From: Methylococcales bacterium
Lineage (GTDB): Bacteria > Pseudomonadota > Gammaproteobacteria > Methylococcales > DRLZ01
Reading direction: 5' to 3'
NCBI GenBank assembly: GCA_965224565.1
Contig: CBDCZN010000002.1
Location: 2,230,417-2,294,416, forward strand
Length of the DNA stretch: 64,000 nucleotides
Below the pieces are notes generated by a model, which did no database searches, was not told the DNA's origin, and worked only from the letters and a program-made list of their open reading frames with translations. Every line of letters begins with the position of its first letter. The first letter of the stretch is position 1. This document shows, piece by piece, positions 38,759-63,330 of the stretch. Both the position numbers and the translations under genes were made by a program.

Positions 38759-39786
38759 CCTGATTACCCATAAGCTTCCGCAACTTTACTCGGAATTTTC
38801 ACTCTAATGGATATGTAATCACGGAGTCAAAGCCATGAGCAAAAATAAAGTGCAGTTCCAGGCAGGCTATAGCTTAATACAGCTATTTCAAGACTACGGA
38901 ACAGAAAGCCAATGCCGCGAAGCTTTATTCAAATTACGCTGGCCGACAGGGTTTAATTGCCCTGAGTGTGGTGGTTATCAGTATTGCTTTTTAAAAGCAA
39001 GAAAGCTCTATCAGTGTAATCAATGCCATCATCAAACGTCATTGATAAGCAGAACCATTTTTGAGCAAACCAAACTTCCTCTAACGAAGTGGTTTTTAGC
39101 CATCTACTTAATCACACAATCAAAACAGGTCTGTCAGCGTTGGCGCTTAAACGTGAAATCGGTGTGTCTTACAAGACAGCATGGAGTATGAAACACAAGA
39201 TCATGCAGGTCATGAAGGAACGAGATGATTGCAAGCGACTCAGTGGAACAATCCAGTTAGATGACGTCTATTGGGGTGGCGAACGCCACGGTGGAAAAAG
39301 AGGCAGAGGCTCAGCCAATAAGGTCCCGTTTGTTGCCGCTGTTTCACTCGATAAAGAAGGTCACCCGATTGCAATGAATATGAATGTCGTTAAAGGGTTT
39401 CGGCAGACAGAAATATCACGCTGGGCAAAACAGCATCTACAGCCTGATAGCACGGTTATTTCGGATGGATTGCCTTGTTTTTCAGCAGTGACTGATGCTG
39501 ATTGTCATCACATCAGCATTGTAACAGGCGGTGGATACCAAAGTGTCACAAAAAAAGAATTTGCTTGGGTGAATACCATGATAGGCAATGTTAAAAATGC
39601 CATCACTGGCACTTACCATGCAATCAACCCAAAGCATTTGCCACGCTATCTTGCTGAATTCTGCTATCGCCATAACAGACGGTTCCAGCTAGAAGATATG
39701 ATCCCTCGTTTTGCCTATGTTGCAGTCAGGACGACTCCTATGCCAGACAGACTTTTAAAATTGGCGGAAGCTTATGGGTAATCAGG
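38759..39786 (+). mobile_element. IS1595 family insertion sequence copy 1 (1028 bp), 23-bp IRs cctgattacccataagcttccgc, 8-bp TSD tatatgta
   Basis: Perfect IRs; direct repeats at 38751-38758 and 39787-39794. The transposase is split into ORFs 38835..39191 and 39089..39781 by a -1 shift at an A4 run. Confidence 0.85.
38835..39781 (+). CDS. IS1595 family transposase (zinc-finger CPECGG + DDE), frameshifted at caatcaaaacagg
   Basis: ORF1 ends ..LPLTKWFLAIYLITQSK and ORF2 continues ..GLSALALKREIGVSYKTAW. One extra A would give a single ~330-aa protein. Confidence 0.75.
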
Positions 39787-40971
39787 TATATGTATGCTGA
39801 TCACCAGGTGATACACTATCATCGGCTTTGTTCGCACCGCTTGTACCATCAGCATACGGCGAGCCTTCAGAATCCTTATCATAAAAGACTCCGTGTGGAT
39901 GGACAGTGGTCGGGAAAGAGGTATTGTTGCGAAAATGGACGAAAATTGTATCGTTTACTTCAGCTCGGATAATTGGACCGAGCATCCCTAAATGTTCCCT
40001 GTCCGTTCCAATGCGTGTGTCAACCTCTCCAACACCTGCACCGCCATCAATGATTGTATCCCAATCACACTTTGAGCCTTTATTTGCATAACGACGGTAG
40101 AGTGCTTTTGTGTAAACTCTGCCTATACCTTCATCGACAAAGATCAATTGTGAGTGAACAACCTTTTCTGCAAACTGTTGAGCACAAAAACCACCTTGTT
40201 GCGTCCGGCATCCAAAATAGCCAGTGCCTACTTGCCAGATTAAATCGCCACCCGGTTTTAAATGATACGAACTCAATCCTCCTTCCCCAGTGTTATGCGC
40301 AAAGCCACCAATGCGAGCGCCATGATTCAACGCCAATACGGCTGTTTGACTGAGCGCACCAAAACTCATCGCAGAAATATTGAAAATACTTGCAGAATAA
40401 GGCTGGCTACAGACACAACCACCGACCAAGACGCGTGGATCGGTATCCAGTGTTTCCATCTTGTGGGCTGCAAGAGAATGTCCCATCCACTCGTAGCCAA
40501 CTCGGTAGATATCGACGCGAGTGCCGAACGGTACACTATCCATGGCGCCAGTCGAGCGTTGATAAACCACCGAGCGATACATGCGATTGATTGGCACACC
40601 ATCTGTGTCCGATTCCATGTAATATTGACGCACCATCGGTCGCAGCCATTCGGCAATCCAGCGTGCGTGACCGACCACTGGAAAATTCCTGAGAATAGTA
40701 TGCCGTGACTGGTTTATATCGTAAACACCAAGCATACTCAAACACCCGATTGGCAACAACAACCAAAAAGCTGGCTGCCATATCAGACCTAGCAAACCAG
40801 AGAACAGAATGGCACTGATAGAAACCAGATAAAAACGTTGCGACGCATGACGACTACATTACACTAAGTCGGTACAGAAGTTTATCACCAAGAAGCCTGG
40901 TGATCACATTGCCTGCTATTGACAACACACGTCAACATAATCATACTTATATGGAATTCCATATATGTTAA

Positions 40972-41328
40972 TTGATGATGACACCTGCTAATTGTTTTAA
41001 ATGCTTGTCTGATGAAACCCGTCTGCGCTGCATGATGCTTGTGTATAAACAAAGCGAACTTTGTGTTTGTGAGCTGACTCATGCGCTGAATTTATCGCAA
41101 CCGAAAATATCCCGGCATCTTGCTCAATTGCGTCAATGTGGATTGTTACTGGACAAGCGTCGTGGTCAATGGGTGTATTACCAAGTTAATCCCGATCTCC
41201 CTAAGTGGGCTCTGGATATTCTAGTTATCTCTGCTTCAGCGCTAGAAGAGCATGAACTCTATCAAATAGATCATCACCGCCTCAATACGATGTCTGACAG
41301 ACCAGCTGAATCTGCCTGTTGTGAATGA
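40972..41328 (+). CDS. arsR: ArsR/SmtB family metalloregulator
   Basis: ELCVCEL metal-binding motif in the HTH (LSQPKISRHLAQLRQCGLL). Confidence 0.8.
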   Translation: MMMTPANCFKCLSDETRLRCMMLVYKQSELCVCELTHALNLSQPKISRHLAQLRQCGLLLDKRRGQWVYYQVNPDLPKWALDILVISASALEEHELYQIDHHRLNTMSDRPAESACCE

Positions 41329-41352
41329 TTTTTGAATAACAATAATTGCACT

Positions 41353-41518
41353 TATACTCTCCGCACATGAAAATCTAGCATCCTGTGCACGCACTTTTTT
41401 GCGGATAACTGCGTTGAAAAACCTTGCTGTAGAGTGACTACAGCTAAGATTTTCCGCCTTGCTCTCCACAAAATATCACGCACACAAAATGCTAGATTTT
41501 CATGTACGAAGAGTATAC
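41353..41518. mobile_element. MITE copy 4, inserted between arsR and arsI/cadI
   Basis: Full TIRs; flanked by TA dinucleotides. Confidence 0.8.
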
Positions 41519-41544
41519 ATTTGAAACTATAAAGGAAGTTTAAT

Positions 41545-41994
41545 ATGAAAAGATTACATGTCCATATGTCAGTTGAAAATCTTGAAGACAATATTCGCTT
41601 TTACAGCACCTTATTCGCCTCTGAACCAACCGTGCAACATGACGATTACGCTAAATGGATGCTGGATAACCCACTTGTCAACTTTGCCATCTCAAATCGT
41701 GGCGCAAAACCTGGTATTGACCACCTGGGTATGCAAACTGACGATGACGAAGAGCTGGTGGATTTAAAACAACGTTTGGATGTAACACAGCAACCCATTA
41801 AAACCCAGGAAAATTCAGCTTGCTGTTATGCTAAATCAGATAAACACTGGGTAACTGATCCACAGGGAATTGCCTGGGAATCATTTCATTCATTATCCGA
41901 GATTCCAACTTTCAACGAGCCAGTAGACACTGAAACCAATGAAAGCGCATGCTGCGCACCAGTGGCAAAAGAAGCATCGCCATGTTGTGGCTAA
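41545..41994 (+). CDS. ArsI/CadI-type glyoxalase-family metalloenzyme with C-terminal Cys pairs
   Basis: VOC fold (MKRLHVHMSVENLEDNIRFYSTLF...IDHLGMQ) with CC motifs near the C-terminus; the genomic context lies between arsR and arsC. Confidence 0.6.
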   Translation: MKRLHVHMSVENLEDNIRFYSTLFASEPTVQHDDYAKWMLDNPLVNFAISNRGAKPGIDHLGMQTDDDEELVDLKQRLDVTQQPIKTQENSACCYAKSDKHWVTDPQGIAWESFHSLSEIPTFNEPVDTETNESACCAPVAKEASPCCG

Positions 41995-42026
41995 CCCTTT
42001 GAAATTAAAGCTGGAGAAAATAAACC

Positions 42027-42503
42027 ATGAAAAATGTTCTGGTGTTATGCACTGGTAATTCCTGTCGCAGTGTTCTTGGTGAAGCACTCTTCAATCATCT
42101 GGGTACTGGTCGAATCAAAGCCTTCTCCGCAGGTAGTAACCCAGTTGGCAAAGTCAATTCAAATGCACTAGCAACTCTAGCCGATCACGGTTTACCAACT
42201 GATGGTTATAGCAGTCAGCCCTGGGATGAATTTGCTGATTACAAAATAGATATTGTCATCACCGTTTGTGATAACGCGGCAGAGGAAACCTGTCCGGTCT
42301 ATCTCAACGATGCGATTAGAGTACATTGGGGTCTTGCCGATCCGGCACATGTCACAGGGACAAAGGAACAAATTAATTTCGCGTTTGAAAATACTTATAC
42401 TGCTCTGGAAGCGCGTATCAAAAAAATGCTCGAGTTGCCACTGGATGATTTAACCAATCAACAATTACTTAATCAGTTAAATGAAATTGGTACGACGACA
42501 TGA
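42027..42503 (+). CDS. arsC: Arsenate reductase, LMW-PTP/thioredoxin-coupled type
   Basis: CTGNSCRS P-loop at the N-terminus, and Cys82/Cys89-like residues (VITVCDNAAEETCP). Confidence 0.85.
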   Translation: MKNVLVLCTGNSCRSVLGEALFNHLGTGRIKAFSAGSNPVGKVNSNALATLADHGLPTDGYSSQPWDEFADYKIDIVITVCDNAAEETCPVYLNDAIRVHWGLADPAHVTGTKEQINFAFENTYTALEARIKKMLELPLDDLTNQQLLNQLNEIGTTT

Positions 42504-42830
42504 AATTTTAGCATTTAGTGTGCGTAATTTTTGTAGAGAATCAGGCAGAAAACCTTAGCTAAGTCATTCTACAGCTAAGGTTTTCCTACGTAATCATTCG
42601 CCTTGAACTCGAACAAAAATCCTAATTATACTCTTCGCACATGAAAATCTAGCATTTTGTGTGCGTGATATTTTGTGGAAAGCAAGGCGGAAAATCTTAG
42701 CTGTAATCACTCTACAGCAAGGTTTTTCAACGCAGTTATCCGCAAAAAAGTGCGTGCACAGGATGCTAGATTTTCATGTGCGGAGAGTATATTAGAGGCA
42801 CCTTTAAATCTTCATGTGCGGAGACTATCT
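42499..42830. mobile_element. Cluster of MITE copies: partial (42499-42600), full inverted copy 5 (42627-42793), TIR remnant (42795-42830)
   Basis: Core palindrome and TIR sequences are recognisable in each piece. Confidence 0.7.
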
Positions 42831-42831
42831 A

Positions 42832-45800
42832 TTATTGCTGAAACTCCAAATGTAGAACAGGTGCAGCGGATGCGTTTGCCTCAAACGAAGTCGCCTCACG
42901 CTTGCCACTCCCTGTAACAATAATTGCCAACGAATGATTGTTAGTCCAATTAGTTCGGTTGACAATTTCTTGAACTATGGAGGTGAGATTTGGCGTACGT
43001 TGATCAACACCGGCGTCACCACTAGCCGTCCATGGAACTGGAGCCCAAGACACACTCGCGTTTGTGGTTGGTCTGGTCGACAAATTATTACTGACCTTAA
43101 GAAAAGTCGTCGCATTGTCAGCAGCTTCCCCTTTTAGCGTCAAAGAAGTTGTCGTTGAACGAGCTTTTGCGGCAGTAAATTGAATATAAGCGCTAACAAT
43201 TGTGCTGCCTTGTGGAATGTTTACAGTATTAAAGCGCATGCCGATGGTTTGATTACCTCCTGAAGCAACCAAATCGAGATCTGTACTTCCTACAATAACG
43301 TTGCCATCAGCTTTTTCTTCGATATCATCACTGCCTGAACTAATCGGGATGGAAAGTCTTGTTGTCCCTCCTCCTGCAGCAAGAACATTGACAGTGATGC
43401 TATCAGAACTGGTTAAACTGTCACCATCAGTTGCTGTTGCAGTAATCGTATGTGTTCCCTCCGACAACACGCTTATTGAGAAGGAAGCACCTGATCCAAT
43501 GGTTCCATCAAGATTGGAAGTCCAGCTCAAGCTTGCACTCACATCACCATCTTCCGTATCCAATGCACTTCCAGTAAAAGTAATGCTATCGCCAAAGGTG
43601 GCATTCGTTCCATCCGTAGGCGCAGTAATCGATGCTGTGGGCGGTTGATTCCCAGTTCCAGCCATGCCAGAAAACTCAACATGAAGTACTGGTGCAGTGG
43701 CTGAATTACCCTCAAACGCAATCCCTTCGCGTTTGCCCGTTCCAGCAATGATGATCGCCAACGAATGACTACTGATCCAATTTGATCGATTAACAATTTC
43801 TTGAATAATTGGAGTGAGATTTGGTGTTCGTTGATCAATACCCGCGCCACCAGCTACTGTCCACGGAACTGGCGACCATGACACACTCGCCGTCGTTACT
43901 GGCCTGGAGGATACATTGTTATTGACCCTGAGAAAGGTTGCCGCATTGTCCGCTGCCTCTCCTTTTAGTGTCAAAGAGGTCGTCGAAGATCGAGTATTTG
44001 CGGCAGTAAATTGAATATAAGCGTTGACAATTGTCGCACCTCTTGGAATCGTTAGACCATTAAAGCGTATACCAACCGTTTGACTGCCTCCAGAAGCCAC
44101 CAAATCAAGATCTGAACTACCAGTAATAACCCGACCATCAGGCTTTTCTTCGGCATCATCACTGCCTGTTGATACTCTGACCTCTTGAATAGTGGTAGAG
44201 TCCCCGGTGTCATCTCCCCGATTGACAGTCACAGTAATTTCATCAAAAGCGGTGAGGTTGCCTTTATTTACAGTCAACCGCAGTACGTAGGTTCCTGAGA
44301 CATCGAAATTGACACTCGTATCTTCGTCATTGGAGTCAACGAAGGATGCTGTACCCGGGCCGCTGATCTGACTCCAGATATTGGTACTCCCCGAAGGTAC
44401 AGTTCCATTCAAGCGTAACTCTGCAGGTAGCACAATCGTTTGATCTGAGCCTGCAGATACCTGCAACGCTTCGTCGATATCATCGACTCTAAGCATCTTT
44501 GATACACTTGGCACGCCCGCATTATCAATGATAAAAAGCATATAATGCCCAGGTGGTGCAATGTTAGCACTATCAGGCGTTGTTACCTCCAATGCTCCAT
44601 TTCTCGGAATAAAACTGAGAGGAATATATCGTTGTTCCATATTCTGCGAATGCGTGACAGAACCGGTTCGTACTAACCCGACCTTAAGGATCTCGCTAGC
44701 TTGGGGTGTCTCCACTATTATTTGCCAAGAGTATCCTATTTCATCAGGTGTATTCTCGATGACAGGACGAGATGCCAATTGCCCCGACCCATCCGCCCGA
44801 AAAAGATATGGCGGTGAAAAAATCTCTGCATTTTTCTGGAGATATCCGACTTGTTGACAGGTTCCACAGATCCCGCCACCAGCCGAGAGCACACGTGCGT
44901 CAGGCAGCAATAATGCTATCGAGTGATATTGTCTGGCTCGCGACTCGCTAGCTAGACTCACCCAGGTTTCGGTATCTGGATTCCACAGCTCTGGTGTATA
45001 AACTGCATTAGTCAAATCAACCAACCCAGCATTCGAGCTGTAACCACCCGTAGCCAGTACTGAGCCATCAGCCAATATCGTTAAATTGTGTTGACGGCGG
45101 CGGAAAGCCATCGAATCTGTCGATGAAACAGTGTTGTTATGCAAATCGATGACGACTGATGACTGTTGACTATGAACCGAACTCTGATGACCACCACCAG
45201 CAATCAAGACTTTACCAATGTCGTACATTGCATAACTGCCATAGGATCGCTTTGCATTGTCACGCCTTATCGTATTTTGCCATGCTCCACTACCGCTCGT
45301 TGTGACATAGCCAAGTTGAGTATCCGGTCCAAAAAAGGCTACTCGACCATCTGGAGCTGTTTGCAACCACGGATACTCTCTATGTGCCCAATAGTTTTGT
45401 GCTGCACTTGAGAGTAGGCGGATCTGACCATTGGTTTGGCGAACTTCAGATGTTGCTGGTCCACCTCCGGTAATGAGCATTTCGCCATTTGCCAGCGGCG
45501 TTACGGATGGATACCAGCGTGTAAAACTCATATCGACCCCGACACTCCAGTTTGGTGCTGAAGACGAAAACAAGTGGGTTTCTCTTAAACCATTTAAACC
45601 AGCGTCAGCATTCCCTCCAGCGATAAACAATTGTCCATCTGGTAGCGAAGCAAAACCACTGCAGAAAAGATTATAACCAGTGTCTACACGGACATCAGTA
45701 AACTGACTTGTAACGGGGTCCCAAATAGTCGCCCTGGTGAAAGTGTGGTTTGGAAACGATTCAGTCGGTGCGTCACCAACTGAATCAAAAGCAAGTATAC

Positions 45801-46155
45801 GTCCGTCATGTAACAGCGATACAAAAACAGGAACAAGTGGCCATCCCTCTACGCCTCCCCATTGCCCTTCGTTCTGCGCACTCGCACTAAGTGCTGTGAT
45901 TCGCGTTGCGGTGCTTAATTCAGGGTTATAGCCGATCCGCTCTCTTTCTGCGCGCTCAATAATCTGCGCCTCTTCTTCGATTGTAGGAGCCCGATCATCA
46001 TGAAAGCTGTCTTCTGTTATTTCCTGAGACACGCTTGATTCCAACTCGTGTGCCGATAGTACACTACCCAAGGAAAACACTATACATACCAGTAACAAAA
46101 CAGGCGATCTGAAAGCTGTGAATATCAAACAGCTGTATTGCATTAGATTTCTCAT
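42832..46155 (-). CDS. Secreted galactose-oxidase/glyoxal-oxidase-like protein with two Ig-like domains and a duplicated ~190-aa C-terminal module (1107 aa)
   Basis: Signal peptide, a Kelch-type propeller region and a DUF1929/E-set-like region (...GHYMLFIIDNAGVPS), then Ig - module X - Ig - module X. The module X copies are ~75% identical (SGSDD.EEK.DG.V..GS.DLDLVASGG.QT.G.RFN). Confidence 0.7.
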   Translation of the reverse strand: MRNLMQYSCLIFTAFRSPVLLLVCIVFSLGSVLSAHELESSVSQEITEDSFHDDRAPTIEEEAQIIERAERERIGYNPELSTATRITALSASAQNEGQWGGVEGWPLVPVFVSLLHDGRILAFDSVGDAPTESFPNHTFTRATIWDPVTSQFTDVRVDTGYNLFCSGFASLPDGQLFIAGGNADAGLNGLRETHLFSSSAPNWSVGVDMSFTRWYPSVTPLANGEMLITGGGPATSEVRQTNGQIRLLSSAAQNYWAHREYPWLQTAPDGRVAFFGPDTQLGYVTTSGSGAWQNTIRRDNAKRSYGSYAMYDIGKVLIAGGGHQSSVHSQQSSVVIDLHNNTVSSTDSMAFRRRQHNLTILADGSVLATGGYSSNAGLVDLTNAVYTPELWNPDTETWVSLASESRARQYHSIALLLPDARVLSAGGGICGTCQQVGYLQKNAEIFSPPYLFRADGSGQLASRPVIENTPDEIGYSWQIIVETPQASEILKVGLVRTGSVTHSQNMEQRYIPLSFIPRNGALEVTTPDSANIAPPGHYMLFIIDNAGVPSVSKMLRVDDIDEALQVSAGSDQTIVLPAELRLNGTVPSGSTNIWSQISGPGTASFVDSNDEDTSVNFDVSGTYVLRLTVNKGNLTAFDEITVTVNRGDDTGDSTTIQEVRVSTGSDDAEEKPDGRVITGSSDLDLVASGGSQTVGIRFNGLTIPRGATIVNAYIQFTAANTRSSTTSLTLKGEAADNAATFLRVNNNVSSRPVTTASVSWSPVPWTVAGGAGIDQRTPNLTPIIQEIVNRSNWISSHSLAIIIAGTGKREGIAFEGNSATAPVLHVEFSGMAGTGNQPPTASITAPTDGTNATFGDSITFTGSALDTEDGDVSASLSWTSNLDGTIGSGASFSISVLSEGTHTITATATDGDSLTSSDSITVNVLAAGGGTTRLSIPISSGSDDIEEKADGNVIVGSTDLDLVASGGNQTIGMRFNTVNIPQGSTIVSAYIQFTAAKARSTTTSLTLKGEAADNATTFLKVSNNLSTRPTTNASVSWAPVPWTASGDAGVDQRTPNLTSIVQEIVNRTNWTNNHSLAIIVTGSGKREATSFEANASAAPVLHLEFQQ

Positions 46156-46577
46156 TTTAACCTCTGTGTTTTTCAGTTTTTGTTATAGCAATCAGTCTGA
46201 GTAAGAACGAGATTAACTGCTTATTTAAGTTGTTAATTTTACCGCTATTTTGAAAGGGAGAACAAAACAATTCTACTAATATTTAAATGTCTGCATGAAA
46301 TTGTTATCCACATCGAGTGCAATGATATTGTAAACAATTGCTTTTAGAGTCTGTTAGGTCAAAAAACTTGAAAAAAACACCTTCTATTCAAATACTTTGC
46401 AATCGGCAAATTCGATATACTAAACCAATAATATTCTGATGATGCATATCAAGATTGCAGTATTTCAACACTCCATAAAATATCACGTACACTAGATACA
46501 AAATTGTCAAATAATATTGAACCCTTGTAATTTTTTATAAATCCTTAAAAAACCTAGATAACACAAAGGAAACACGA

Positions 46578-47423: not shown

Positions 47424-47490
47424 TCATTGATATTCCTGATTTATTGATTTTAAGGGTTAAACTTTCAAGCGACAACACAGGTTAAATTCT

Positions 47491-52055: not shown

Positions 52056-52132
52056 AGTGCTTAATCTTACTCAGAATAGTGTTGACTTATGAACCCAGAT
52101 TTAATTATAAAATCTAAGGCTTAACGGGTCAT

Positions 52133-52780: not shown

Positions 52781-53337
52781 GAAGCTGTTTGGTTAAAAAA
52801 TGTCCAAGCGAAAAGTTCTTGAATCGATTGGATTTTTTCGATGGTTCGAGGCGAATAGTTGCGCTATTTAACGAGGAGCAGCGGAAAAATACAACGATTT
52901 CAAGGGCTTTGCAGCGGACATTTTCAACCCAACAGCTTCTAAAATATCTAGTAGCTAAACAGCGTAATCGGCAATCTGTGTTGTTACTAATTAAACATCT
53001 GTAGATTTCTTATATCATTCAGAATTGTTCGCAATCGATGTAGGGGAACTATTTTCCCCATAAATCCAATCCCATTGATAATCACCACGGCAATCGATAG
53101 ACAAAAAATTCATCTTTAAATATCGACGGGTTCAAATCGTCGAATAAACCGAAATGTTCGCAAACAACTCTTAGAAATAGTCTGATCATAAACAAGTCGA
53201 CTGAAAAGCCCGTGACATGATCAATAGCTATTTCTGATACATTTCACTAATCCAATGGGCTACACAAACATTGGTCTGTTTCATATCGAATAATACCAAT
53301 CCCAATAAGTTCTTGAATAAATTTACTCATATATGGT

Positions 53338-54736
53338 CTCCTCCATTTTTGCAAGTAACACTGTTAACAAAGTGACAGGGATAGATTTGCTCTCATATAT
53401 CCGGCTTCCTGTTGGAATTGTTTGGATTCCGAGCCTTGATGAAATCTGCGCATGCCGTCCTCATCATCCTATCGGACTGGTTATCGTCCTATGTGCTAAA
53501 CAGGTTTTCAGCATGCCGGTCTTACCTATAATGTCATCATGTCATTCATGTCTTTCGCAAAATCGTGGATTACTCGGTTGAGACGTTTACTCTGATGATG
53601 AGTCGCCGTCCGTTGTTCTATTAAAGCGCATAATTCTCCGTGTAGGGTTTGCCGCTGGTGGTCACCGCCCAGGCAATTCTTGCCAGCTTATTTGCAAGTG
53701 CCACTGTTGCCTTGTTTTTGCCACGTCGCTCGACTAATCGCGTCACCCAGCGACTCAATGCGTCGTCTTTCTTGTGCGCATGGATCACTACGGATCGCGC
53801 ACCATGCACTAATAAGCTGCGTAGATATTTATCACCGCGCTTGCTAATCCCAAGCAATGTGTTCTTTCCGCCGCTGCTGTGTTGGCGTGGAACCAGCCCA
53901 AGGGATGCAGCAACATCTCGACCATTGACAAACGCACGTCCATCACCAATGACGCTAAAATAAGTGCTGGATACAATGACTCCAAAGCCTGGTATGCTTT
54001 GCAGACGTTTGATTTCAGCATGTTGCTTCGCATCCGTTTCAATGACGCTGGTTAAGTCTTTCACCAGCTGATCCAGCTCACAGAGTTGCTGGTATTTCAG
54101 TGCCAATGCGTTGCGAAACAGCGGGTGCAAATGGTTCTCCCCATCTTCCAGTATCTCTGGCAGGCGTTTGCGTAAGGTGGCAATGCCTTGATTCAATACA
54201 ATGCCAAATTCACTCAGCAGTCCACGCACTTGATTACTTAGCCCAGTTCTGTCGGCAACAGCGCGTTGGCGTAAACGATGCAGCGCCTGGATGCTTTGTT
54301 GCTCGATGGTTTTCACTGCCACATCGCGCATTTCCGGGACACGACTTGCTTCTGCAATGGCAAGCGCATCATTGTAGTCATTTTTGTTACCCCGCACATA
54401 AGGTTTAACATGCTGTGCTGGGAGTAATCTGACCTGATGGCCGAATTTGCTCAGTTCTCGTGCCCAATAATGCGCGCCTGCACAGCCTTCCATGCTGATT
54501 TTACAGGGTGTGAGGTTCGCAAAGTAAGCAAGTAGTTTACTGCGGCTTAGTTTTTTCTTAAGTACTTGCTTTCCGGTGTGATCCAGGCCAACAAGATGAA
54601 AGGTTTGTTTTGCTATATCCAGTCCGATTACGTTAATATTCATGGTGGTCTCCTGCTTCGTTTAATTGAGATATTTTGATCGTCAATTATGGCACTTTGA
54701 TGCCGAATTAGGGGGAGGAGACCATCTCATCATCCT
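53338..54736 (-). mobile_element. IS110 family insertion sequence copy A (~1.4 kb) with intact transposase (53621..54643)
   Basis: The transposase begins MNINVIGLDIAKQTFHLVG (DEDD family). The ends ggtctcctcc / ggaggagacc are shared with copy B; flanking DNA diverges at 53337/54737. Confidence 0.8.
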
Positions 54737-54908
54737 AAGCCCTTCTTTATCAAATAAGCATTGTATGAGAACTTATTGGGATTGGTATAATAACATTGAA
54801 TAACTACAATTTACTTTATAATACATCACCTCCAGTTTTTATTAATAACGACTGTGACACATGCTGGATAATAGAATAAAAAGTAGTAACTATAAAAAAA
54901 CATGAAAG

Positions 54909-56102: not shown

Positions 56103-56146
56103 ATAGCATTGCTTACCAGTTGATGAGACTGCGAGCCAGACAACAA

Positions 56147-56701
56147 TCATAAGCAGCTAGCAAGTGCTTCTACCAGTTGCTTTACTCCGAGCTTTCTCGC
56201 GTTCTCGATATTTCTCTGTGGAATATTATGAGCATCTGGATAATCTGCGATTGCTTGTTCTAAACTGGTCTCTCTCAACAAATGCAGCATTGGGTATGGT
56301 GAGCGATTTGTGTAATTGGCGGGATCATCCATATCTGTATCTGTAAATTGGTATTGCGGATGAAAACTCGCTAATTGATAAACACCTTCATAACCTTGGG
56401 CAACCAGTAAATCTTCGGCTAGTGCCAACAATTCAAGAAAATACTCAAAATCAGTATAGCCTTGTGGATAGATAATTAATGTTGTTTCAATCCTGTTTGA
56501 GTTATCGAGTTTTTGGCATTCAGCAATCAACGCTTGCAGACATGCTTCTAATTGGTGATCAGTTACTACTTGATAGTAAATAGTCTGCGCTTCAAACACT
56601 TTGTTTGCAAACGGACAAAACTGATAACCGATAACCACTGTTTTCACCCATTCTCGTGTTTGGGCAATCATGCGTTCAGCTGATAGTGTTGAGTGTTGCA
56701 T
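56147..56701 (-). CDS. DUF1415-like conserved protein
   Basis: 184 aa with a CPF motif near the N-terminus; family assignment is by similarity of overall pattern. Confidence 0.45.
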   Translation of the reverse strand: MQHSTLSAERMIAQTREWVKTVVIGYQFCPFANKVFEAQTIYYQVVTDHQLEACLQALIAECQKLDNSNRIETTLIIYPQGYTDFEYFLELLALAEDLLVAQGYEGVYQLASFHPQYQFTDTDMDDPANYTNRSPYPMLHLLRETSLEQAIADYPDAHNIPQRNIENARKLGVKQLVEALASCL

Positions 56702-56709
56702 ATCAGCGA

Positions 56710-58068
56710 TTACAGCAATTCAAGTGCATCGCTGAGCGTTTTGACTTGATGAATATCCAATCCAGGAATACCTTTTTTTGGAGCATTACTGGCAGGAACG
56801 ATGGCCTGTTTATAACCGTGTTTAACCGCTTCTCGCAAACGTTCTTCACCATTGGGAACTGGACGCACCTCCCCTGCCAGACCAATTTCCCCAAACAATA
56901 TCCAGTCATTAGGCACTGGTCTATCTCGAAAACTGGATAATAATGATGCCAGCACTGGCAGGTCGCCTGCGGTTTCTGTCAGTCGCATGCCGCCAACGAT
57001 ATTAACGAACACATCTTGATCGGCAATTGAAATACCACCGTGACGGTGTAATACAGCCAGTAACATCGACAATCGATTTTGCTCGATACCCAGCGTTACT
57101 CGTTTGGATTGACCTCCATAACTGGTATCCACCAAAGTTTGTACTTCGACTAGCAATGGGCGACTGCCTTCTCTGGTCACCATCACTACACTACCTGAAA
57201 CAGCTTTATCGTGTCGTGACAGAAAAATAGCCGATGGATTGTGAACTTCTTTGAGTCCCAATTCAGTCATCACGAATACTCCCAGCTCGTTGACTGCACC
57301 AAAGCGATTTTTGATGGCACGCACAACCCGAAAACGGCTACCTGCGTCGCCTTCAAAATACAACACTGTATCGACCATGTGCTCTAATACACGTGGGCCA
57401 GCAATCGCTCCTTCTTTGGTGACATGACCGACCAGAAACACAGATGTCTGGCTGAGTTTTGCAAAACGTACTAATTGCGCAGCACACTCGCGTACTTGCG
57501 ACACTGAACCGGATGCCGATTGCATGGTTTCGCTATATACAGTTTGGATGGAGTCAATCACCAACACAGAGGGTTGATGTTTGGCTGCTTGTTGCAATAT
57601 TTTTTCCAGAGAAGTTTCTGCAAGTATGTCGATATGGTCAACTTTGAGTTTAAGACGCTGGGCACGCATACTGACTTGCTCAATTGACTCTTCGCCAGTG
57701 ACGTACAACGGCCTTGCGCCTGACCCAAGCATTGCCATGCCTTGTAATAACAGTGTGGATTTACCAATTCCAGGATCACCACCAATCAGAATTGCAGAAC
57801 CAGAGACCAGACCGCCCCCCAGCACCCGATCAAATTCACTCAGTCCGGTCGGGCTGCGTTCAATATGTTCTGCACTGACTGCTGCCAAGGAAACAATTGG
57901 TGAATCAACAGCAACACCTGCAAAGCCGCTATAACGGCCTTTACCCTGGGATATCTGAGCAACTTCTTGTAATGTATTCCATACTCCACAACCTGCGCAC
58001 TGCCCTGCCCACTTGGTTTGACCGTGACCACAGTCAGTGCATTGATAGTTGATTTTTTGTTTACTCAT
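56710..58068 (-). CDS. radA: DNA repair protein RadA (Sms)
   Basis: N-terminal C4 zinc finger (CTDCGHGQTKWAGQCAGCGVW), RecA-like Walker A GDPGIGKSTL, a KNRFG motif and a Lon-like C-terminal domain. Confidence 0.9.
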   Translation of the reverse strand: MSKQKINYQCTDCGHGQTKWAGQCAGCGVWNTLQEVAQISQGKGRYSGFAGVAVDSPIVSLAAVSAEHIERSPTGLSEFDRVLGGGLVSGSAILIGGDPGIGKSTLLLQGMAMLGSGARPLYVTGEESIEQVSMRAQRLKLKVDHIDILAETSLEKILQQAAKHQPSVLVIDSIQTVYSETMQSASGSVSQVRECAAQLVRFAKLSQTSVFLVGHVTKEGAIAGPRVLEHMVDTVLYFEGDAGSRFRVVRAIKNRFGAVNELGVFVMTELGLKEVHNPSAIFLSRHDKAVSGSVVMVTREGSRPLLVEVQTLVDTSYGGQSKRVTLGIEQNRLSMLLAVLHRHGGISIADQDVFVNIVGGMRLTETAGDLPVLASLLSSFRDRPVPNDWILFGEIGLAGEVRPVPNGEERLREAVKHGYKQAIVPASNAPKKGIPGLDIHQVKTLSDALELL

Positions 58069-58360
58069 GCATATTCGAGATAAGTGTTGTGATTATCCAG
58101 GAGGCTGTCCGAAAATAGAGAACCTACTGAGGGAAAGCCCTTTTTGGCCAGATTTTCCAATCATTTTCGTTAACATAGACCCACTATTCGCCTCGAACGA
58201 TCGAAAAATCCGACTCAAAATAGGTTTCCCTCGCTACGGCTTCTATTCTCGGATAGCCTCCTAGCATCAGTTCGTTTGTAACCGTTCAGGCTCCCTAATA
58301 AATACTCTGGTTCCTACAAAGACCGTCACTACCATTAAGTTTAAGTTAAGGGGAAAATAT

Positions 58361-59769
58361 AGGATGATGAGATGGTCTCCTCCCCCTAATTCGGCATCAA
58401 AGTGCCATAATTGACGATCAAAATATCTCAATTAAACGAAGCAGGAGACCACCATGAATATTAACGTAATCGGACTGGATATAGCAAAACAAACCTTTCA
58501 TCTTGTTGGCCTGGATCACACCGGAAAGCAAGTACTTAAGAAAAAACTAAGCCGCAGTAAACTACTTGCTTACTTTGCGAACCTCACACCCTGTAAAATC
58601 AGCATGGAAGGCTGTGCAGGCGCGCATTATTGGGCACGAGAACTGAGCAAATTCGGCCATCAGGTCAGATTACTCCCAGCACAGCATGTTAAACCTTATG
58701 TGCGGGGTAACAAAAATGACTACAATGATGCGCTTGCCATTGCAGAAGCAAGTCGTGTCCCGGAAATGCGCGATGTGGCAGTGAAAACCATCGAGCAACA
58801 AGCATCCAGGCGCTGCATCGTTTACGCCAACGCGCTGTTGCCGACAGAACTGGGCTAAGTAATCAAGTGCGTGGACTGCTGAGTGAATTTGGCATTGTAT
58901 TGAATCAAGGCATTGCCACCTTACGCAAACGCCTGCCAGAGATACTGGACAGATGGGGAGAACCATTTGCACCCGCTGTTTCGCAACGCATTGGCACTGA
59001 AATACCAGCAACTCTGTGAGCTGGATCAGCTGGTGAAAGACTTAACCAGCGTCATTGAAACGGATGCGAAGCAACATGCTGAAATCAAACGTCTGCAAAG
59101 CATACCAGGCTTTGGAGTCATTGTATCCAGCACTTATTTTAGCGTCATTGGTGATGGACGTGCGTTTGTCAATGGTCGAGATGTTGCTGCATCCCTTGGG
59201 CTGGTTCCACGCCAACACAGCAGCGGCGGAAAGAACACATTGCTTGGGATTAGCAAGCGCGGTGATAAATATCTACGCAGCTTATTAGTGCATGGTGCGC
59301 GATCCGTAGTGATCCATGCGCACAAGAAAGACGACGCATTGAGTCGCTGGGTGACGCGATTAGTCGAGCGACGTGGCAAAAACAAGGCAACAGTGGCACT
59401 TGCAAATAAGCTGGCAAGAATTGCCTGGGCGGTGACCACCAGCGGCAAACCCTACACGGAGAATTATGCGCTTTAATAGAACAACGGACGGCGACTCATC
59501 ATCAGAGTAAACGTCTCAACCGAGTAATCCACGATTTTGCGAAAGACATGAATGACATGATGACATTATAGGTAAGACCGGCATGCTGAAAACCTGTTTA
59601 GCACATAGGACGATAACCAGTCCGATAGGATGATGAGGACGGCATGCGCAGATTTCATCAAGGCTCGGAATCCAAACAATTCCAACAGGAAGCCGGATAT
59701 ATGAGAGCAAATCTATCCCTGTCACTTTGTTAACAGTGTTACTTGCAAAAATGGAGGAGACCATATATG
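58361..59769 (+). pseudogene. IS110 family element copy B, inverted relative to copy A; transposase frameshifted (ORFs 58454..58858 + 58913..59476)
   Basis: About 99% identical to copy A, with a 1-bp deletion (caacaagcatcc vs caacaaagcatcc) and a small indel near 58940. Confidence 0.8.
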
Positions 59770-60268
59770 CGCTAAGGCACGAAGTGCATCTTTCGCGATT
59801 GATGCGCTTCCTATGGTCACACATCCTATATCTGATCTACGTGAGGGTACCGAAAAAGGTGAGTTTGTTGGGACTGAGCTTTTTCAAGAAAAAAGTGCAA
59901 GAATGACAAAACTGCGTGTTAAGAAATTGGCACATGGTGACCACAGAAAATACGAAATCTATAAGGAAGATAGGTGACATGTTAGATCAAGCACTCTGAC
60001 TCCTAGATCGATGAAGACAATCGATTGAGGTGGAAAGAGATGGAGACGCTACGCGTATTGAGATTGAAGCGCTCAAACGGTGCGCGCCTAGCAGCGACTG
60101 ACAAGGAAACAATATCTTATCCCGGTTGTTTTGGCAACAATGCTGATATACACGGCAGAATAGAGTAATAATTATTGACACCGACCAGCTGATGGGTGAC
60201 CCCTAGATCCTTTATTTGTTTTACTTCAATTTTTGTAGTCCCGTGCCTCTGTTCTTTATTTAAAATAG

Positions 60269-60931
60269 CTATCCTGGAGGTTCAGTTTTATCTTTGTTCA
60301 AAGAATGCACTTTGAATCTACAACTATGTCCACCTCTTGCCAAACAAAATGTATGTTCAATTTTACTATCAAGGAGGGTAGAGAGTAATGACAAGTCCAT
60401 TTCACAAACTTCTGGATTGTTATAAGCCAGATCATAAAAGACACAATTATAAGCATCGATTATTAAATTCTCTCCTGGCTCGCCTTCCACTATCTCAGTT
60501 TCATAACCCAGTTCCTTCATAATGGCGGCAGTCATTTTGATTCTTTCTTCTATAGGTTTATTTTTCAGCACATCTTTTCTAGATTCTGCAAGCGAAACAC
60601 CTAATTCTCTGAGATACTCAACCATCTCCTCAGAACCTAATTTCTGTTTGATCAAAGTAATTAGCATTTTTGCAAAAAGGCTATAGTGTTTGGGGAAAAC
60701 ATGCTCCCCTTTTTCCGTTAATACAAAAATAGTTCCGGGTCTTCCGCCTGTTTGCATAGAGGTGGATTTTCTAACAAAGCCATCTCTTTCTAACACGGTT
60801 AAATGCCGGTGAATTGCACTTCTTGAAATCCCCAGAAGTTTGGAAAACTGATCAACAGTCATTCCCTTTTTTTCTTTCACCAAAAATTGCAGTATCTTCT
60901 GCTGTTTTTCACTGAATCCAACAATGTCCAT
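60269..60931 (-). CDS. HTH-type transcriptional regulator with C-terminal Cys-rich sensor-like domain (possible metal/copper-responsive regulator)
   Basis: N-terminal winged HTH (MTVDQFSKLLGISRSAIHRHLTVLERDGFV) and C-terminal cysteines (CEMD...FCLARGGHSC). It is divergent from the MCO pseudogene and lies in AT-rich DNA. Confidence 0.45.
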   Translation of the reverse strand: MDIVGFSEKQQKILQFLVKEKKGMTVDQFSKLLGISRSAIHRHLTVLERDGFVRKSTSMQTGGRPGTIFVLTEKGEHVFPKHYSLFAKMLITLIKQKLGSEEMVEYLRELGVSLAESRKDVLKNKPIEERIKMTAAIMKELGYETEIVEGEPGENLIIDAYNCVFYDLAYNNPEVCEMDLSLLSTLLDSKIEHTFCLARGGHSCRFKVHSLNKDKTEPPG

Positions 60932-61330
60932 GCAGCCTCTTGTTTTTTCTGGATTAATTTAATCTCATGCGAAGCATCAAAAAGCTCTTACTCTATATGT
61001 TTATAAGAGAATTATAACATTTTCAGAAACAAAGCGGTATGCAACAGGAAGAGCATATCAGGGCAATCGGGTTTAAAAGTTCTTGACTTTTCAATGTCTA
61101 ATAAAATCAATAGATTGAAAGTATAGCTTTATTAAAACCCTTGCTCCTTAGAATTCATGAATTTTTAACTAGTTGATTTTAATAGCTATAATTCTAGACC
61201 CGATTGCCCTGAAGAGCATATAATTATGTTATAGAACTTTATTATGTTTATAGTTGACAAAGACTGCAATTAGGGCTAATCTAGATTACGCATTAATAAC
61301 AATCGTAATGAATTAACTAGGGAGATTTGG

Positions 61331-63330
61331 ATGAAATTTAGACAATCTACAAATAACAAAATTAAGAAAAGAATTAACAAAATAGCCTGTCTATTGATGA
61401 TTTTTTTTGGGATAACTTTGGCTGAGGCAAAACAGCATAAATTTGAAATGACGATTAATGAAGTTACGATTAAAGTTGCACCCAAATTAGATTAAAAAGT
61501 ATTCACCTTTAATGGTCAGGTTCCTGCTCCACTACTCATGTGAAGGAAGGTGATGATGTCGAAGTATTTGTAACTAATAATACTTCTACCTGATTACCCA
61601 TAAGCTTCCGCAACTTTACTCGGAATTTTCACTCTAATGGATATGTAACCACGGAGTCAAAGCCATGAGCAAAAATAAAGTGCAGTTCCAGGCAGGTTAT
61701 AGCTTAATACAGCTATTTCAAGACTACGGAACAGAAAGCCAATGCCGCGAAGCTTTATTCAAATTACGCTGGCCGACAGGGTTTAATTGCCCTGAGTGTG
61801 GTGGTTATCAGTATTGCTTTTTAAAAGCAAGAAAGCTCTATCAATGTAATCAATGCCATCATCAAACGTCATTGATAAGCAGAACCATTTTTGAGCAAAC
61901 CAAACTTCCTCTAACGAAGTGGTTTTTAGCCATCTACTTAATCACACAATCAAAACAGGTCTGTCAGCGTTGGCGCTTAAACGTGAAATCGGTGTGTCTT
62001 ACAAGACAGCATGGAGTATGAAACACAAGATCATGCAGGTCATGAAGGAACGAGATGATTGCAAGCGACTCAGTGGAACAATCCAGTTAGATGACGTCTA
62101 TTGGGGTGGCGAACGCCACGGTGGAAAAAGAGGCAGAGGCTCAGCCAATAAGGTCCCGTTTGTTGCCGCTGTTTCACTCGATAAAGAAGGTCACCCGATT
62201 GCAATGAATATGAATGTCGTTAAAGGGTTTCGGCAGACAGAAATATCACGCTGGGCAAAACAGCATCTACAGCCTGATAGCACGGTTATTTCGGATGGAT
62301 TGCCTTGTTTTTCAGCAGTGACTGATGCTGATTGTCATCACATCAGCATTGTAACAGGCGGTGGATACCAAAGTGTCACAAAAAAAGAATTTGCTTGGGT
62401 GAATACCATGATAGGCAATGTTAAAAATGCCATCACTGGCACTTACCATGCAATCAACCCAAAGCATTTGCCACGCTATCTTGCTGAATTCTGCTATCGC
62501 CATAACAGACGGTTCCAGCTAGAAGATATGATCCCTCGTTTTGCCTATGTTGCAGTCAGGACGACTCCTATGCCAGACAGACTTTTAAAATTGGCGGAAG
62601 CTTATGGGTAATCAGGTACTTCTATGCCTCATACCATTCATTGGTATGGCTTTTATATGACTAACAATTGGAAAAATGATGGAGTACCAGGCGTTACACA
62701 AGAAGTCATAGAAGCCAGTGAAAATTATACGTATTGATGGAAAGCCGAGAAAACGGGGGAGTCTTTCGTATCACTGTCATTCCAATGTTAATTAACATGT
62801 GGGAGTCCGAGGTATGTGGGGACCTATTATTGTTGATCCCATTGAACCTACTGAGTTGGAAAAAACAGTGACTAAAGACGTTATCGTCATGTTTAGCACG
62901 TGGTCATCAAGCCACGCTGATAAATTTGGAGAGGGAGGAACGCCGTCAGATTTAGTGGATTACTTTTCTATCAATGGCCACTCTTTTCCTACAACCCAGC
63001 CTGTACGCATTAAAAAAGGAGATGTAGTGCGTTATCGCCTGTATGGAGCGGGGGAAGGTCTGCATTCTTTTCATCCTCATGGACATGACCTGTTAATTAC
63101 ACATAAGGACGGTTTGCCATTGGCACAACCTTATAAAATCGATACTTTACTGATTGCATCATGGGAACGTTATGACGCTATCGTGACAATGAACAATCCT
63201 GGACGCTGGATTGCACACGATTAATTTGATACGCATGTGATCAATGCGGGTAAATATCCTGGTGGAGCTCTTCTTATTACTGAATATGAGGATATTCCAA
63301 TGGATGATTGGTACGACTGGAAAAGTAAAG
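61331..63330 (+). pseudogene. Two-domain laccase-like multicopper oxidase gene destroyed by nonsense and frameshift mutations and an IS1595 insertion
   Basis: Signal peptide MKFRQSTNNK..LAEA; FTFNGQVPAPLL then -1 frame HVKEGDDVEVFVTNNTS; IS at 61589; after the IS, MPHTIHWYG...YHCH...(taa)...GMWGPIIVDP...HSFHPHGH. Confidence 0.7.
61589..62616 (+). mobile_element. IS1595 family insertion sequence copy 2 (identical to copy 1, including the A4 frameshift), 8-bp TSD tacttcta
   Basis: Same IRs; direct repeats 61581-61588 and 62617-62624. Confidence 0.85.

What the first reader, a model, noticed from the sequence alone, without database searches (positions are those of the whole stretch)
38759..62616. 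Two independent IS1595 insertions, each into a different multicopper-oxidase gene, both carrying the same A4 frameshift in the transposase
The two copies have different TSDs, so they were separate insertion events, yet both sit in MCO genes: a ceruloplasmin-like one on the minus strand at 38-40 kb, and a laccase-like two-domain one on the plus strand at 61-63 kb. Both copies have the transposase split at caatcaaaacagg, where an A5 run would give one ORF. Either the element transposes by transcriptional or translational slippage at the A-run, or a defective copy is being mobilised in trans. MCO genes being hit twice might reflect target preference, or relaxed selection on copper oxidases.
Basis: seen in the sequence. 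Interest (0 to 1): 0.5.

Follow-up and report, generated by a model that had tools for sequence, protein, structure and literature searches.

The report
Two dead IS1595 copies in decayed copper-oxidase genes
Two copies of a small jumping gene sit in two already-decaying copper-oxidase genes and share a one-base deletion that breaks their transposase; an intact copy exists in the same genome, so this is ordinary mobile-element decay, not a special decoding trick.

Summary
Two 1028-bp IS1595-family elements (38759-39786 and 61589-62616, both + strand) have 23-bp perfect inverted repeats. Each has its own 8-bp target duplication (TATATGTA, TACTTCTA). Each splits a different two-domain multicopper-oxidase gene, and both carry A4 where A5 would give one 315-aa transposase.

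The slippage idea is not supported:
- All close relatives are single 315-aa ORFs.
- The run varies synonymously among relatives.
- Broken relatives are broken at other sites.
- There is no slippery heptamer and no downstream RNA structure.
- The exact "repaired" protein is recorded on the same 3.3-Mb Methylococcales contig.
- A short-read contig holds a copy identical to copy 1 except for A5.

So A4 is a plain inactivating deletion. It was shared by descent, most likely through mobilisation in trans, possibly through gene conversion.

The double hit on copper oxidases has no sequence-level cause. The element prefers a generic AT-rich palindrome, A-W-A-N4-T-W-T, found about once per 390 bp. None of 73 related loci lies near an MCO. 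Both MCO genes carry independent lesions: one has a 5' truncation and fusion, the other has two frameshifts and four stops. This fits tolerated insertions in dispensable, decaying genes of an IS-rich genome. Interest is low.

The parts
38759..39786 (+). IS1595-family insertion sequence, copy 1 (1028 bp, A4 allele)
   Evidence: The copies were defined by repeat family D4 and a base-by-base comparison. Copy 1 is identical to the intact copy L004 except for one missing A.
38759..38781 (+). Left terminal inverted repeat, CCTGATTACCCATAAGCTTCCGC
   Evidence: It is a 23/23 match to the reverse complement of 39764-39786.
39764..39786 (+). Right terminal inverted repeat; it contains the transposase stop codon
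38751..38758 (.). Target-site duplication of copy 1 (TATATGTA), left copy
   Evidence: It is identical to the octamer at 39787-39794.
39787..39794 (.). Target-site duplication of copy 1 (TATATGTA), right copy
38835..39191 (+). ORF A: the Zn-ribbon N-terminal part of the transposase (residues 1-97 authentic) followed by a 21-residue out-of-frame tail
   Evidence: Translation. The Pfam Zn_ribbon_IS1595 match covers residues 22-67. This exact product is P0136.
39122..39125 (+). A4 run, the site of the 1-bp deletion. Functional relatives read TCA AAA ACA (A5) here.
39089..39781 (+). ORF B: the -1 frame, carrying the helix-turn-helix and DDE_Tnp_IS1595 catalytic part. The homologous sequence starts at 39125.
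38137..38758 (-). MCO1, 3' part: ceruloplasmin-like two-domain multicopper oxidase, second half of domain 1 plus domain 2
   Evidence: tblastn gives 100% identity to the restored ORF and 65% to homologues P0168 and P0209. The Pfam match is Cu-oxidase_2.
39787..40153 (-). MCO1, 5' part. Homology to full-length relatives begins only at their residue ~58-64, so the start codon and signal peptide are missing.
40154..40850 (-). N-terminal fragment of an FMN-binding glutamate-synthase-family gene, fused in frame to the truncated MCO1
   Evidence: The Pfam Glu_synthase match covers only profile positions 67-130 of 369. The frame is open across the junction.
61589..62616 (+). IS1595-family insertion sequence, copy 2 (1028 bp, A4 allele, 3 transitions relative to copy 1)
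61581..61588 (.). Target-site duplication of copy 2 (TACTTCTA), left copy
62617..62624 (.). Target-site duplication of copy 2 (TACTTCTA), right copy
61952..61955 (+). A4 run of copy 2
61331..61588 (+). MCO2, 5' part: two-domain laccase-type MCO pseudogene. The signal-peptide-like start is present. It has one in-frame TAA (61493-61495) and one frameshift near 61537.
62617..63392 (+). MCO2, 3' part. It has in-frame stops at 62735-62737 (TGA), 62793-62795 (TAA) and 63222-63224 (TAA), and a frameshift between 62742 and 62788. Copper-ligand motifs are altered (HWHG to HWYG, HCH to HD*).

Best explanation
The element is an uncatalogued IS1595-family insertion sequence of an IS-rich Methylococcales genome. 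Its functional form encodes one 315-aa transposase through the codons TCA AAA ACA (A5).

The two copies in the window carry a plain loss-of-function deletion of one A (A4). This truncates the protein after the zinc ribbon and before the helix-turn-helix and DDE domains. They are therefore non-autonomous copies, not elements expressed by slippage.

Intact A5 copies in the same chromosome supply transposase. The A4 allele most likely arose once and then reached a second site. Mobilisation of the defective copy in trans is my preferred route, at roughly half of the weight within this explanation. Gene conversion between resident copies comes next, and an independent repeat of the deletion is least likely.

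Each copy inserted by ordinary cut or copy and paste with an 8-bp duplication, at a generic AT-rich palindromic target (A-W-A-N4-T-W-T). That both landed in multicopper-oxidase genes reflects retention of insertions in dispensable, decaying genes, not targeting.

Shown: the anatomy, the independence of the insertions, the existence of the A5 sibling, the single-ORF norm, the target consensus and the extra lesions in both MCO genes. Inferred: the route by which A4 came to be shared, and the order of the lesions.
For: 1. Family norm. The 120 best homologues, up to 91% identical, are single proteins of 310-327 aa, nearly all 315 aa. Of the related loci found in other genomes, 59 cover the site; 56 of them encode (S/A/E..)K(T/N)G there in one frame and the other three are themselves broken copies. 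The nucleotide spellings vary synonymously (TCA AAA ACA, TCT AAA ACA, GCC AAA ACG, GCC AAG ACA and others).

2. Broken relatives are broken at other positions, near residues 30, 57, 113, 150, 165, 197, 209, 217 and 251. One exception, L056, has a deletion of about 26 codons that starts at residue 97; it was not examined further.

3. Intact sibling. The exact 'repaired' 315-aa protein (P0147) is recorded on the same 3,319,017-bp contig that carries this window's RadA, ORF A and ISAs1 proteins. Its DNA in a short-read contig (L004) is identical to copy 1 over 1028 positions apart from the extra A.

4. A third allele on the same contig (P0144) reads through the site and is broken by a different frameshift near residue 177. 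So copies in this genome decay at scattered sites.

5. No frameshift signal. There is only an A_AAA tetramer. RNA downstream folds no better than shuffles (z = +0.28). [quoted passage not shown]

6. Independent insertions. The two copies have different perfect 8-bp duplications and different flanks.

7. Target. Thirteen insertions of this clade with perfect duplications give A at -1 (11/13), A at +2 (13/13), T at +7 (13/13) and T just after the duplication (12/13). Both window sites fit. The consensus occurs 158 times in the restored window.

8. Decay of the targets. MCO1 lacks its first ~60 codons and is fused to a glutamate-synthase fragment. MCO2 has 2 frameshifts and 4 stops.

9. Assembly quality. 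Two independent short-read assemblies match the window 100% over 3.7-3.8 kb with no gaps. The nine other homopolymer runs of 5 or more bases in the IS, including an A7, are unchanged in both copies.
Against: I could not read the 3.3-Mb source contig. The number, positions and haplotypes of the A4 and A5 copies are therefore unknown, and the A5 copy on that contig is known only from a protein record.

L004 has no matching 8-bp duplication. It is probably a collapsed or chimeric short-read contig, so it shows that the allele exists but not where it sits.

Many transposases act preferentially in cis (general knowledge, not tested here), which would make trans-mobilisation inefficient.

All three differences between the copies lie in the left 256 bp. 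This hints at a conversion tract rather than simple descent.

Two of two copies in MCO genes is an unlikely coincidence if insertions were random over the genome. I can offer only survivorship in dispensable genes, not a test.
Confidence: 0.78

Rival explanations
1. Recoding. The A4 copies are functional and make full-length transposase by -1 ribosomal slippage of tRNA-Lys on A_AAA, or by insertion of an extra A during transcription. This would resemble IS1, whose InsAB' is made by frameshifting on an A-run.
For: A -1 shift on A_AAA would give exactly the family-consensus peptide QSKTGL. The IS1595 family is considered related to IS1 (the title of Siguier et al. 2009, as cited in PMC8101967). 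A_AA.A tetramers do occur in some IS1 and IS3 members (PMC4066793). Two copies at different sites carry the allele.
Against: There is no X_XXZ_ZZN heptamer. There is no downstream structure (z +0.28) and no upstream Shine-Dalgarno-like element in the sequence. Tetramers alone give about background frameshifting, and A_AA.A is the weakest of the responsive ones even with a strong pseudoknot. A run of four is far below the lengths I recall being associated with transcriptional slippage. All close relatives are single ORFs with A5 or a synonymous spelling, and none of the relatives I recovered shares the simple one-base shift here. An A5 sibling exists in the same genome. ORF A ends before the helix-turn-helix, so it is not an InsA-like regulator.
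Confidence: 0.03
2. Artefact. Both loci are really A5, and the missing A is a consensus or basecalling error of the long-read assembly.
For: The site is a homopolymer. The source is a single 3.3-Mb MAG contig, probably from long reads (inference). The short-read contig L004 shows A5. The exact ORF A product is recorded only from that one contig.
Against: The same call was made at two loci with unique flanks, while at least one other copy in the same assembly, in identical sequence context, was called A5. That argues against a context-dependent systematic error. The nine other runs of 5 or more bases in the element, including an A7, are correct in both copies. The window agrees 100%, with no gaps, with two short-read assemblies over 3.7-3.8 kb.
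Confidence: 0.07
3. Same dead allele, but not spread by transposition. Both copies inserted while intact. The A4 deletion then either arose twice or was copied from one resident copy to the other by gene conversion.
For: The three differences between the copies are all silent (one non-coding, two synonymous). All three lie in the left 256 bp, and the right 772 bp, including A4, are identical. This is the pattern expected for a conversion tract, or for divergence while still under selection. Cis-preference of transposases (general knowledge) disfavours trans-mobilisation.
Against: With only three differences, the clustering (p about 0.02-0.03) and the silence (p about 0.05) are weak evidence. 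For independent recurrence, the same run would have to be hit twice out of about ten runs of 5 or more bases, when an A7 run is available. Copy 2's states at positions 109 and 256 are derived relative to six outgroup elements. This fits simple descent from a copy-1-like A4 progenitor equally well.
Confidence: 0.3
4. The IS has a real preference for multicopper-oxidase genes, through sequence, structure or transcription, and this explains the double hit.
For: Both copies in the window lie in the first cupredoxin domain of an MCO gene. Both sites fit A-TA-N4-TA-T and are followed by TGC.
Against: The two MCO genes share only 24-32% protein identity. The insertion points are about 50 codons apart in homologous coordinates, at HTY|IW and NNTS|MPH. 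The orientation relative to the gene differs: antisense at one site, sense at the other. The shared bases are simply the clade-wide consensus seen at 13 unrelated sites, which occurs once per ~390 bp. None of the related loci with 2-kb flanks contains MCO-like sequence.
Confidence: 0.03

Closest known systems
IS1595 family insertion sequences (Siguier, Gagnevin & Chandler 2009). The nearest annotated relatives are plasmid-borne IS1595-family elements of Marinobacter and Shewanella and the ISKpn3 / ISEc70 / ISPma1-like elements.
   Same: [quoted passage not shown] It is about 1 kb long, has terminal inverted repeats, and makes an 8-bp AT-rich target duplication. The intact sibling has a single transposase gene.
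   Different: It is only 64-68% identical in DNA to the closest annotated plasmid copies, so it is probably an unnamed member. The two copies here carry a 1-bp deletion. I could not assign it to a subgroup (ISPna2 or other), because ISfinder is not available here.
IS1 (InsA / InsAB' made by programmed -1 frameshifting on A_AAA_AAC)
   Same: A short N-terminal zinc-finger ORF is followed by an overlapping -1 frame ORF with the catalytic domain, and the two are joined at an A-run. The family is regarded as related to IS1595.
   Different: There is no heptamer. The two-ORF layout is not conserved in relatives. The break lies upstream of the helix-turn-helix, so ORF A is not an InsA-like DNA-binding regulator. 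An A5 single-ORF sibling is present.
Non-autonomous, frameshift-inactivated IS copies in IS-expanded, pseudogene-rich bacterial genomes
   Same: Several IS families lie within 64 kb: ISAs1, IS110 (two copies), a DDE_Tnp_1 element, IS1595 (two copies) and a MITE (five copies). Defective copies occur alongside intact ones, and insertions sit in decaying genes. Frameshifted IS1595-family copies are reported elsewhere (PMC12561309).
   Different: Nothing is known to differ. What remains undetermined is whether the shared defect spread by trans-mobilisation or by gene conversion.
Two-domain multicopper oxidases: ceruloplasmin-type A-domain pairs for MCO1; metagenomic mgLAC (PDB 2zwn) and Nitrosomonas europaea MCO (PDB 3g5w) for MCO2
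   Same: Both have Cu-oxidase_3 plus Cu-oxidase_2 domains. MCO1 is 55-66% identical to bacterial 350-390-aa homologues and matches ceruloplasmin at E 3e-171. MCO2 is colinear with 2zwn over 306 residues.
   Different: Both are pseudogenes here. MCO1 lacks its N-terminus and signal peptide and is interrupted by the IS. MCO2 has stops, frameshifts, altered copper ligands and the IS.

Membership tests
IS1595 family insertion sequence | Transposase with the DDE_Tnp_IS1595 catalytic domain | tested here: met
   PF12762 matches at E 6.6e-36 over the full profile (1-153). NCBIfam NF033547 scores 226 bits against a cut-off of 75.
IS1595 family insertion sequence | N-terminal zinc-ribbon domain (all groups except IS1016) | tested here: met
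   PF12760 matches at E 3.2e-16, residues 22-67. The feature is as stated in PMC8101967.
IS1595 family insertion sequence | Single transposase gene | tested here: not met
   In the two window copies the gene is split at A4. It is met in the otherwise identical A5 sibling L004/P0147 and in all 120 best homologues. The failure is therefore a mutation of these copies, not a property of the element.
IS1595 family insertion sequence | 8-bp target-site duplication and terminal inverted repeats | tested here: met
   Both copies have perfect 8-bp duplications and 23-bp perfect inverted repeats. Eleven related insertions also have perfect 8-bp duplications.
IS1-type programmed -1 frameshifting element | Slippery motif: an X_XXZ_ZZN heptamer, or an efficient tetramer with a stimulator | tested here: not met
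   The sequence in frame 0 is CAA TCA AAA CAG, so only the tetramer A_AAA is present. There is no downstream structure. Efficiency data are in PMC4066793.
IS1-type programmed -1 frameshifting element | The two-ORF arrangement and the shift site are conserved among related elements | tested here: not met
   Relatives are single ORFs. The run is spelled synonymously in many ways. Frameshifted relatives break elsewhere, apart from one (L056) with a larger deletion that begins at this residue.
IS1-type programmed -1 frameshifting element | A trans-frame fusion protein is detected | not testable with these tools
   This needs a reporter assay, proteomics or ribosome profiling.
Composite (compound) transposon bounded by the two IS copies | A single target duplication at the outer ends of the pair, and none at the inner ends | tested here: not met
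   Each copy has its own matching duplication, and the outer flanks differ (TATATGTA against TACTTCTA).
Functional two-domain multicopper oxidase genes (the targets) | Cu-oxidase cupredoxin domains | tested here: met
   PF07732 and PF07731 match in both restored genes.
Functional two-domain multicopper oxidase genes (the targets) | An uninterrupted ORF with its own start and signal peptide and a complete set of copper ligands, once the IS is removed | tested here: not met
   MCO1's homology starts at residue ~58-64 of full-length relatives. MCO2 has 4 stops, 2 frameshifts, HWYG in place of HWHG and HD* in place of HCH.

The most novel reading that the evidence does not exclude
The A4 allele might be a selected, self-attenuated form of the element. 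ORF A would be the main product, and a trace of full-length transposase would be made by -1 slippage on the bare A_AAA tetramer. That would be an IS1-like regulatory layout arising anew inside the IS1595 family, and it would explain why a 'broken' copy sits at two sites.
Probability: 0.03. Interest if true: 0.45.

Novelty: new member of a known kind. Interest (0 to 1): 0.12.

Why it matters
It matters little beyond annotation. The element is probably an unnamed IS1595-family member from uncultured Methylococcales. Three points are useful for annotating such MAGs:
- The target consensus A-W-A-N4-T-W-T.
- The coexistence of intact and differently broken copies.
- The fact that the two 'MCO genes', and an apparent Glu-synthase-MCO fusion, are pseudogenes.

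The case also shows why an A-run split in a transposase should not be read as programmed frameshifting until relatives and sibling copies have been checked.

Tried and rejected
- **Exact-pattern scans.** I scanned for the 29 bases around the run, allowing A4 or A4 plus one base. Nothing was found in genome contigs or metagenome contigs, so the source genome is not in those collections.
- **Looking up ORF A.** A look-up by window coordinates found no gene record. The cluster look-up later showed it on the 3.3-Mb contig. DNA of that contig was never returned, so a census of copies was impossible.
- **Plasmid collection.** The IS has no close relative there (best 68%). The surrounding 25 kb matches nothing meaningful, and one call failed on a length limit.
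- **Composite transposon or segmental duplication.** Rejected, because each copy has its own duplication and unique flanks.
- **Alternative genetic code for the MCO2 stops.** Rejected, because the stops are a mix of TAA and TGA and long standard ORFs surround the gene.
- **Outgroup polarity of the SNP at IS position 61.** Ambiguous, because that non-coding stretch varies among relatives.
- **L004's flanks.** They show no target duplication and do not match the window. I did not use it for target analysis.
- **RNA structure downstream of the run.** None beyond shuffles.

Full report
**Observation**

A repeat search found one 98%-identical direct pair at an offset of 22830 bp (family D4). Base-by-base comparison shows the copies are colinear from 38757 to 39788. 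They differ at only three positions: 38819, 38867 and 39014.

Reading both loci and extracting the ends gives two 1028-bp elements, 38759-39786 and 61589-62616, both on the + strand.
- Both have the 23-bp perfect terminal inverted repeat CCTGATTACCCATAAGCTTCCGC.
- Each has its own perfect 8-bp direct repeat: TATATGTA for copy 1 and TACTTCTA for copy 2.
- The motif CAATCAAAACAGG occurs exactly once in each copy. About 0.2 matches are expected by chance at one mismatch.

ORF A (38835-39191, 118 aa) and ORF B (39089-39781) overlap, with ORF B in the -1 frame. Adding one A to the run yields a 315-aa protein, identical for both copies. It has Zn_ribbon_IS1595 and a full-length DDE_Tnp_IS1595 domain, and it matches NCBIfam's IS1595 model.

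**Is the A4 split a decoding device or a mutation?**

Six lines of evidence say mutation.

1. The 120 best database homologues, up to 91% identical, are single proteins of 310-327 aa, almost all exactly 315 aa. The DNA of the best one (L001) reads TCA AAA ACA, with A5, at the aligned position.

2. A scan of species-representative genomes returned 73 related loci. Of the 59 loci that cover the site (these 73 plus L001 and L004), 56 encode Q-(S/A/E)-K-(T/N)-G there in one frame; the other three are themselves broken copies. The spelling drifts synonymously: TCT AAA ACA, GCC AAA ACG, GCC AAG ACA, GAA AAA AAT and others. The run length is therefore not conserved as a signal.

3. Relatives that are frameshifted are broken at scattered other positions. 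The one exception is L056, which has a deletion of about 26 codons that starts at residue 97.

4. The exact 'repaired' protein is in the protein collection (P0147). The only retrievable DNA for P0147 is a 1.7-kb short-read contig (L004).

5. Another product on the same big contig (P0144, 186 aa) reads through QSKTGLSAL and is broken near residue 177 by a different frameshift. Copies in this genome therefore decay at different places.

6. There is no frameshift signal.
   - In frame 0 the sequence is CAA TCA AAA CAG, a bare A_AAA tetramer with no X_XXZ_ZZN heptamer.
   - The 90 nt downstream fold no better than shuffled sequence (z = +0.28).
[quoted passage not shown] A_AA.A is the weakest of the six tetramers that respond even to a strong pseudoknot (PMC4066793).
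   - The family is described as having a single transposase gene, an N-terminal zinc finger and 8-bp duplications (PMC8101967, citing Siguier et al. 2009).

**Could A4 be an assembly error?**

This is unlikely but not excluded.
- The same call was made at two loci with unique flanks, while another copy in the same assembly, in identical context, was called A5.
- The nine other homopolymer runs of 5 or more bases in the element, including an A7, agree with L004 in both copies.
- Two independent short-read assemblies match the window with 0 mismatches and 0 gaps over 3.7-3.8 kb.

**How did two copies come to share the defect?**

Different duplications and flanks show two separate insertion events. 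They rule out a segmental duplication or a compound transposon.

Against six outgroup elements, copy 2 carries derived states at IS positions 109 and 256, both synonymous. Position 61 is non-coding and ambiguous. Copy 1 equals the intact L004 apart from the run.

The simplest history is a deletion in a copy-1-like element, followed by transposition of the dead copy using transposase from an intact sibling, followed by three transitions in copy 2.

Two features keep gene conversion alive as an alternative. All three differences are silent, and all lie in the left 256 bp, while the right 772 bp, including the run, are identical. The statistics are weak (p about 0.02-0.05). An independent second deletion would need the same run to be hit twice out of about ten, with an A7 available. 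I give trans-mobilisation about half of the weight within the main explanation.

**The targets**

Restoring site 1 gives one open frame on the minus strand. Its last 323 residues are a ceruloplasmin-like pair of cupredoxin domains (Pfam; PDB 1kcw at E 3e-171). They are 55-66% identical to bacterial two-domain MCOs of 350-390 aa. Homology begins only at residue ~58-64 of those proteins. Upstream, the frame continues into the first ~245 codons of an FMN-binding glutamate-synthase-family gene, matching Pfam profile positions 67-130 of 369. MCO1 has therefore lost its start and signal peptide through a separate deletion and fusion.

Restoring site 2 gives a gene colinear with the two-domain laccase 2zwn over 306 residues (E 2e-142) and with the Nitrosomonas MCO 3g5w. 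That colinearity holds only after splicing across two frameshifts and reading through four stops (TAA, TGA, TAA, TAA). Copper-ligand motifs are also damaged.

Both genes are thus dead for reasons beyond the IS. The more diverged IS copy sits in the more decayed gene.

**Is there targeting?**

The two MCOs share only 24-32% protein identity. The insertion points are about 50 codons apart in homologous coordinates, and the IS is antisense to one gene and sense to the other.

Thirteen insertions of this clade with perfect duplications define a palindromic AT-rich preference:
- A at -1 (11/13)
- T/A at +1
- A at +2 (13/13)
- T at +7 (13/13)
- A/T at +8
- T just after the duplication (12/13)

Both window sites fit. 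This consensus occurs 158 times in the restored window, about once per 390 bp. An A/T-rich preference is also reported for another IS1595-family element (PMC12561309). None of the related loci, each with 2-kb flanks, contains MCO-like sequence.

The window is dense in mobile DNA: ISAs1, two IS110 copies, a DDE_Tnp_1 element and five copies of a 165-nt MITE-like repeat. The double hit is best read as retention of insertions in dispensable, decaying genes. I could not quantify the coincidence, because the full chromosome is not readable with these tools.

**Comparison, novelty and verdict**

The element passes the IS1595-family tests: domains, inverted repeats and an 8-bp duplication. It fails 'single ORF' only through this mutation. 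It fails the tested criteria for an IS1-type programmed frameshift, and it fails the compound-transposon test.

It is at most 68% identical in DNA to annotated plasmid relatives, so it is probably an unnamed family member. The phenomenon itself, defective IS copies beside intact ones and inserted in pseudogenes, is well known.

Interest is low. The residual novel reading, an attenuated IS1-like tetramer frameshift, has about 3% probability.

Noticed in passing
window 5146-5310, 8267-8431, 17265-17429, 41353-41517, 42627-42791: There are five copies of a ~165-nt MITE-like element with ~30-nt terminal inverted repeats (TATACTCTCCGCACATGAAAATCTAGCAT...). The copies are 66-98% identical. Two copies in inverted orientation bracket an ArsI/CadI-like gene and an ArsC-like gene (41545-42503). 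Two direct copies bracket ORFs 5478-6698 and 7184-8260.
   Followed up: partly
window 53328-54737 and 58360-59769: Two IS110-family copies in inverted orientation bracket radA, a DUF1415 gene and an L-2-hydroxyglutarate oxidase gene, making a potentially invertible 3.6-kb segment. The right copy differs by one inserted G and one deleted T, 150 nt apart, which split its transposase. Short-read assemblies of the same population break exactly at these ISs.
   Followed up: partly
window 40154-40850 (minus strand): The N-terminal ~245 codons of an FMN-binding glutamate-synthase-family gene run in frame into the 5'-truncated MCO1. This is a deletion-generated chimeric ORF that an annotator could mistake for a real fusion protein.
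   Followed up: partly
window 13914-23820: This is a block of paralogous repeats (families D1, D2 and D5-D9, 83-95% identical). It contains a 1763-aa DUF3686/AAA ATPase (9785-15076) and a 282-aa fragment of the same family (19601-20449). It also contains two Fic/DOC proteins (18251-18937, 23304-24287) and three or four ~178-aa ORFs with no Pfam match. It looks like a duplicated, partly decayed cassette, possibly defence- or toxin-related.
   Followed up: no
window 42832-46155 (minus strand); 35493-36692 (plus strand): An apparently intact 1107-aa galactose-oxidase/GlxA-like radical copper oxidase lies between the two dead MCOs. An NnrS gene and an ISAs1 element (36787-37905) lie just beyond MCO1's 3' end. 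The neighbourhood is therefore rich in copper and NO-related genes.
   Followed up: no
window ~63500-63900 (plus strand): Downstream of MCO2, a cytochrome-c-like frame with a CQSCH haem motif also contains stop codons. The whole operon, reminiscent of the MCO-cytochrome c cluster next to nirK in nitrifiers (from memory), may be decaying and not only the MCO gene.
   Followed up: no
L056, L044, L026, L055 (related loci): Several related IS1595 copies in other Methylococcaceae MAGs are internally deleted, interrupted or frameshifted. Three of them (L056, L044, L026) still have perfect 8-bp duplications; L055 does not. L056 lacks about 26 codons, and the deletion starts exactly at the residue-97 site.
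   Followed up: partly
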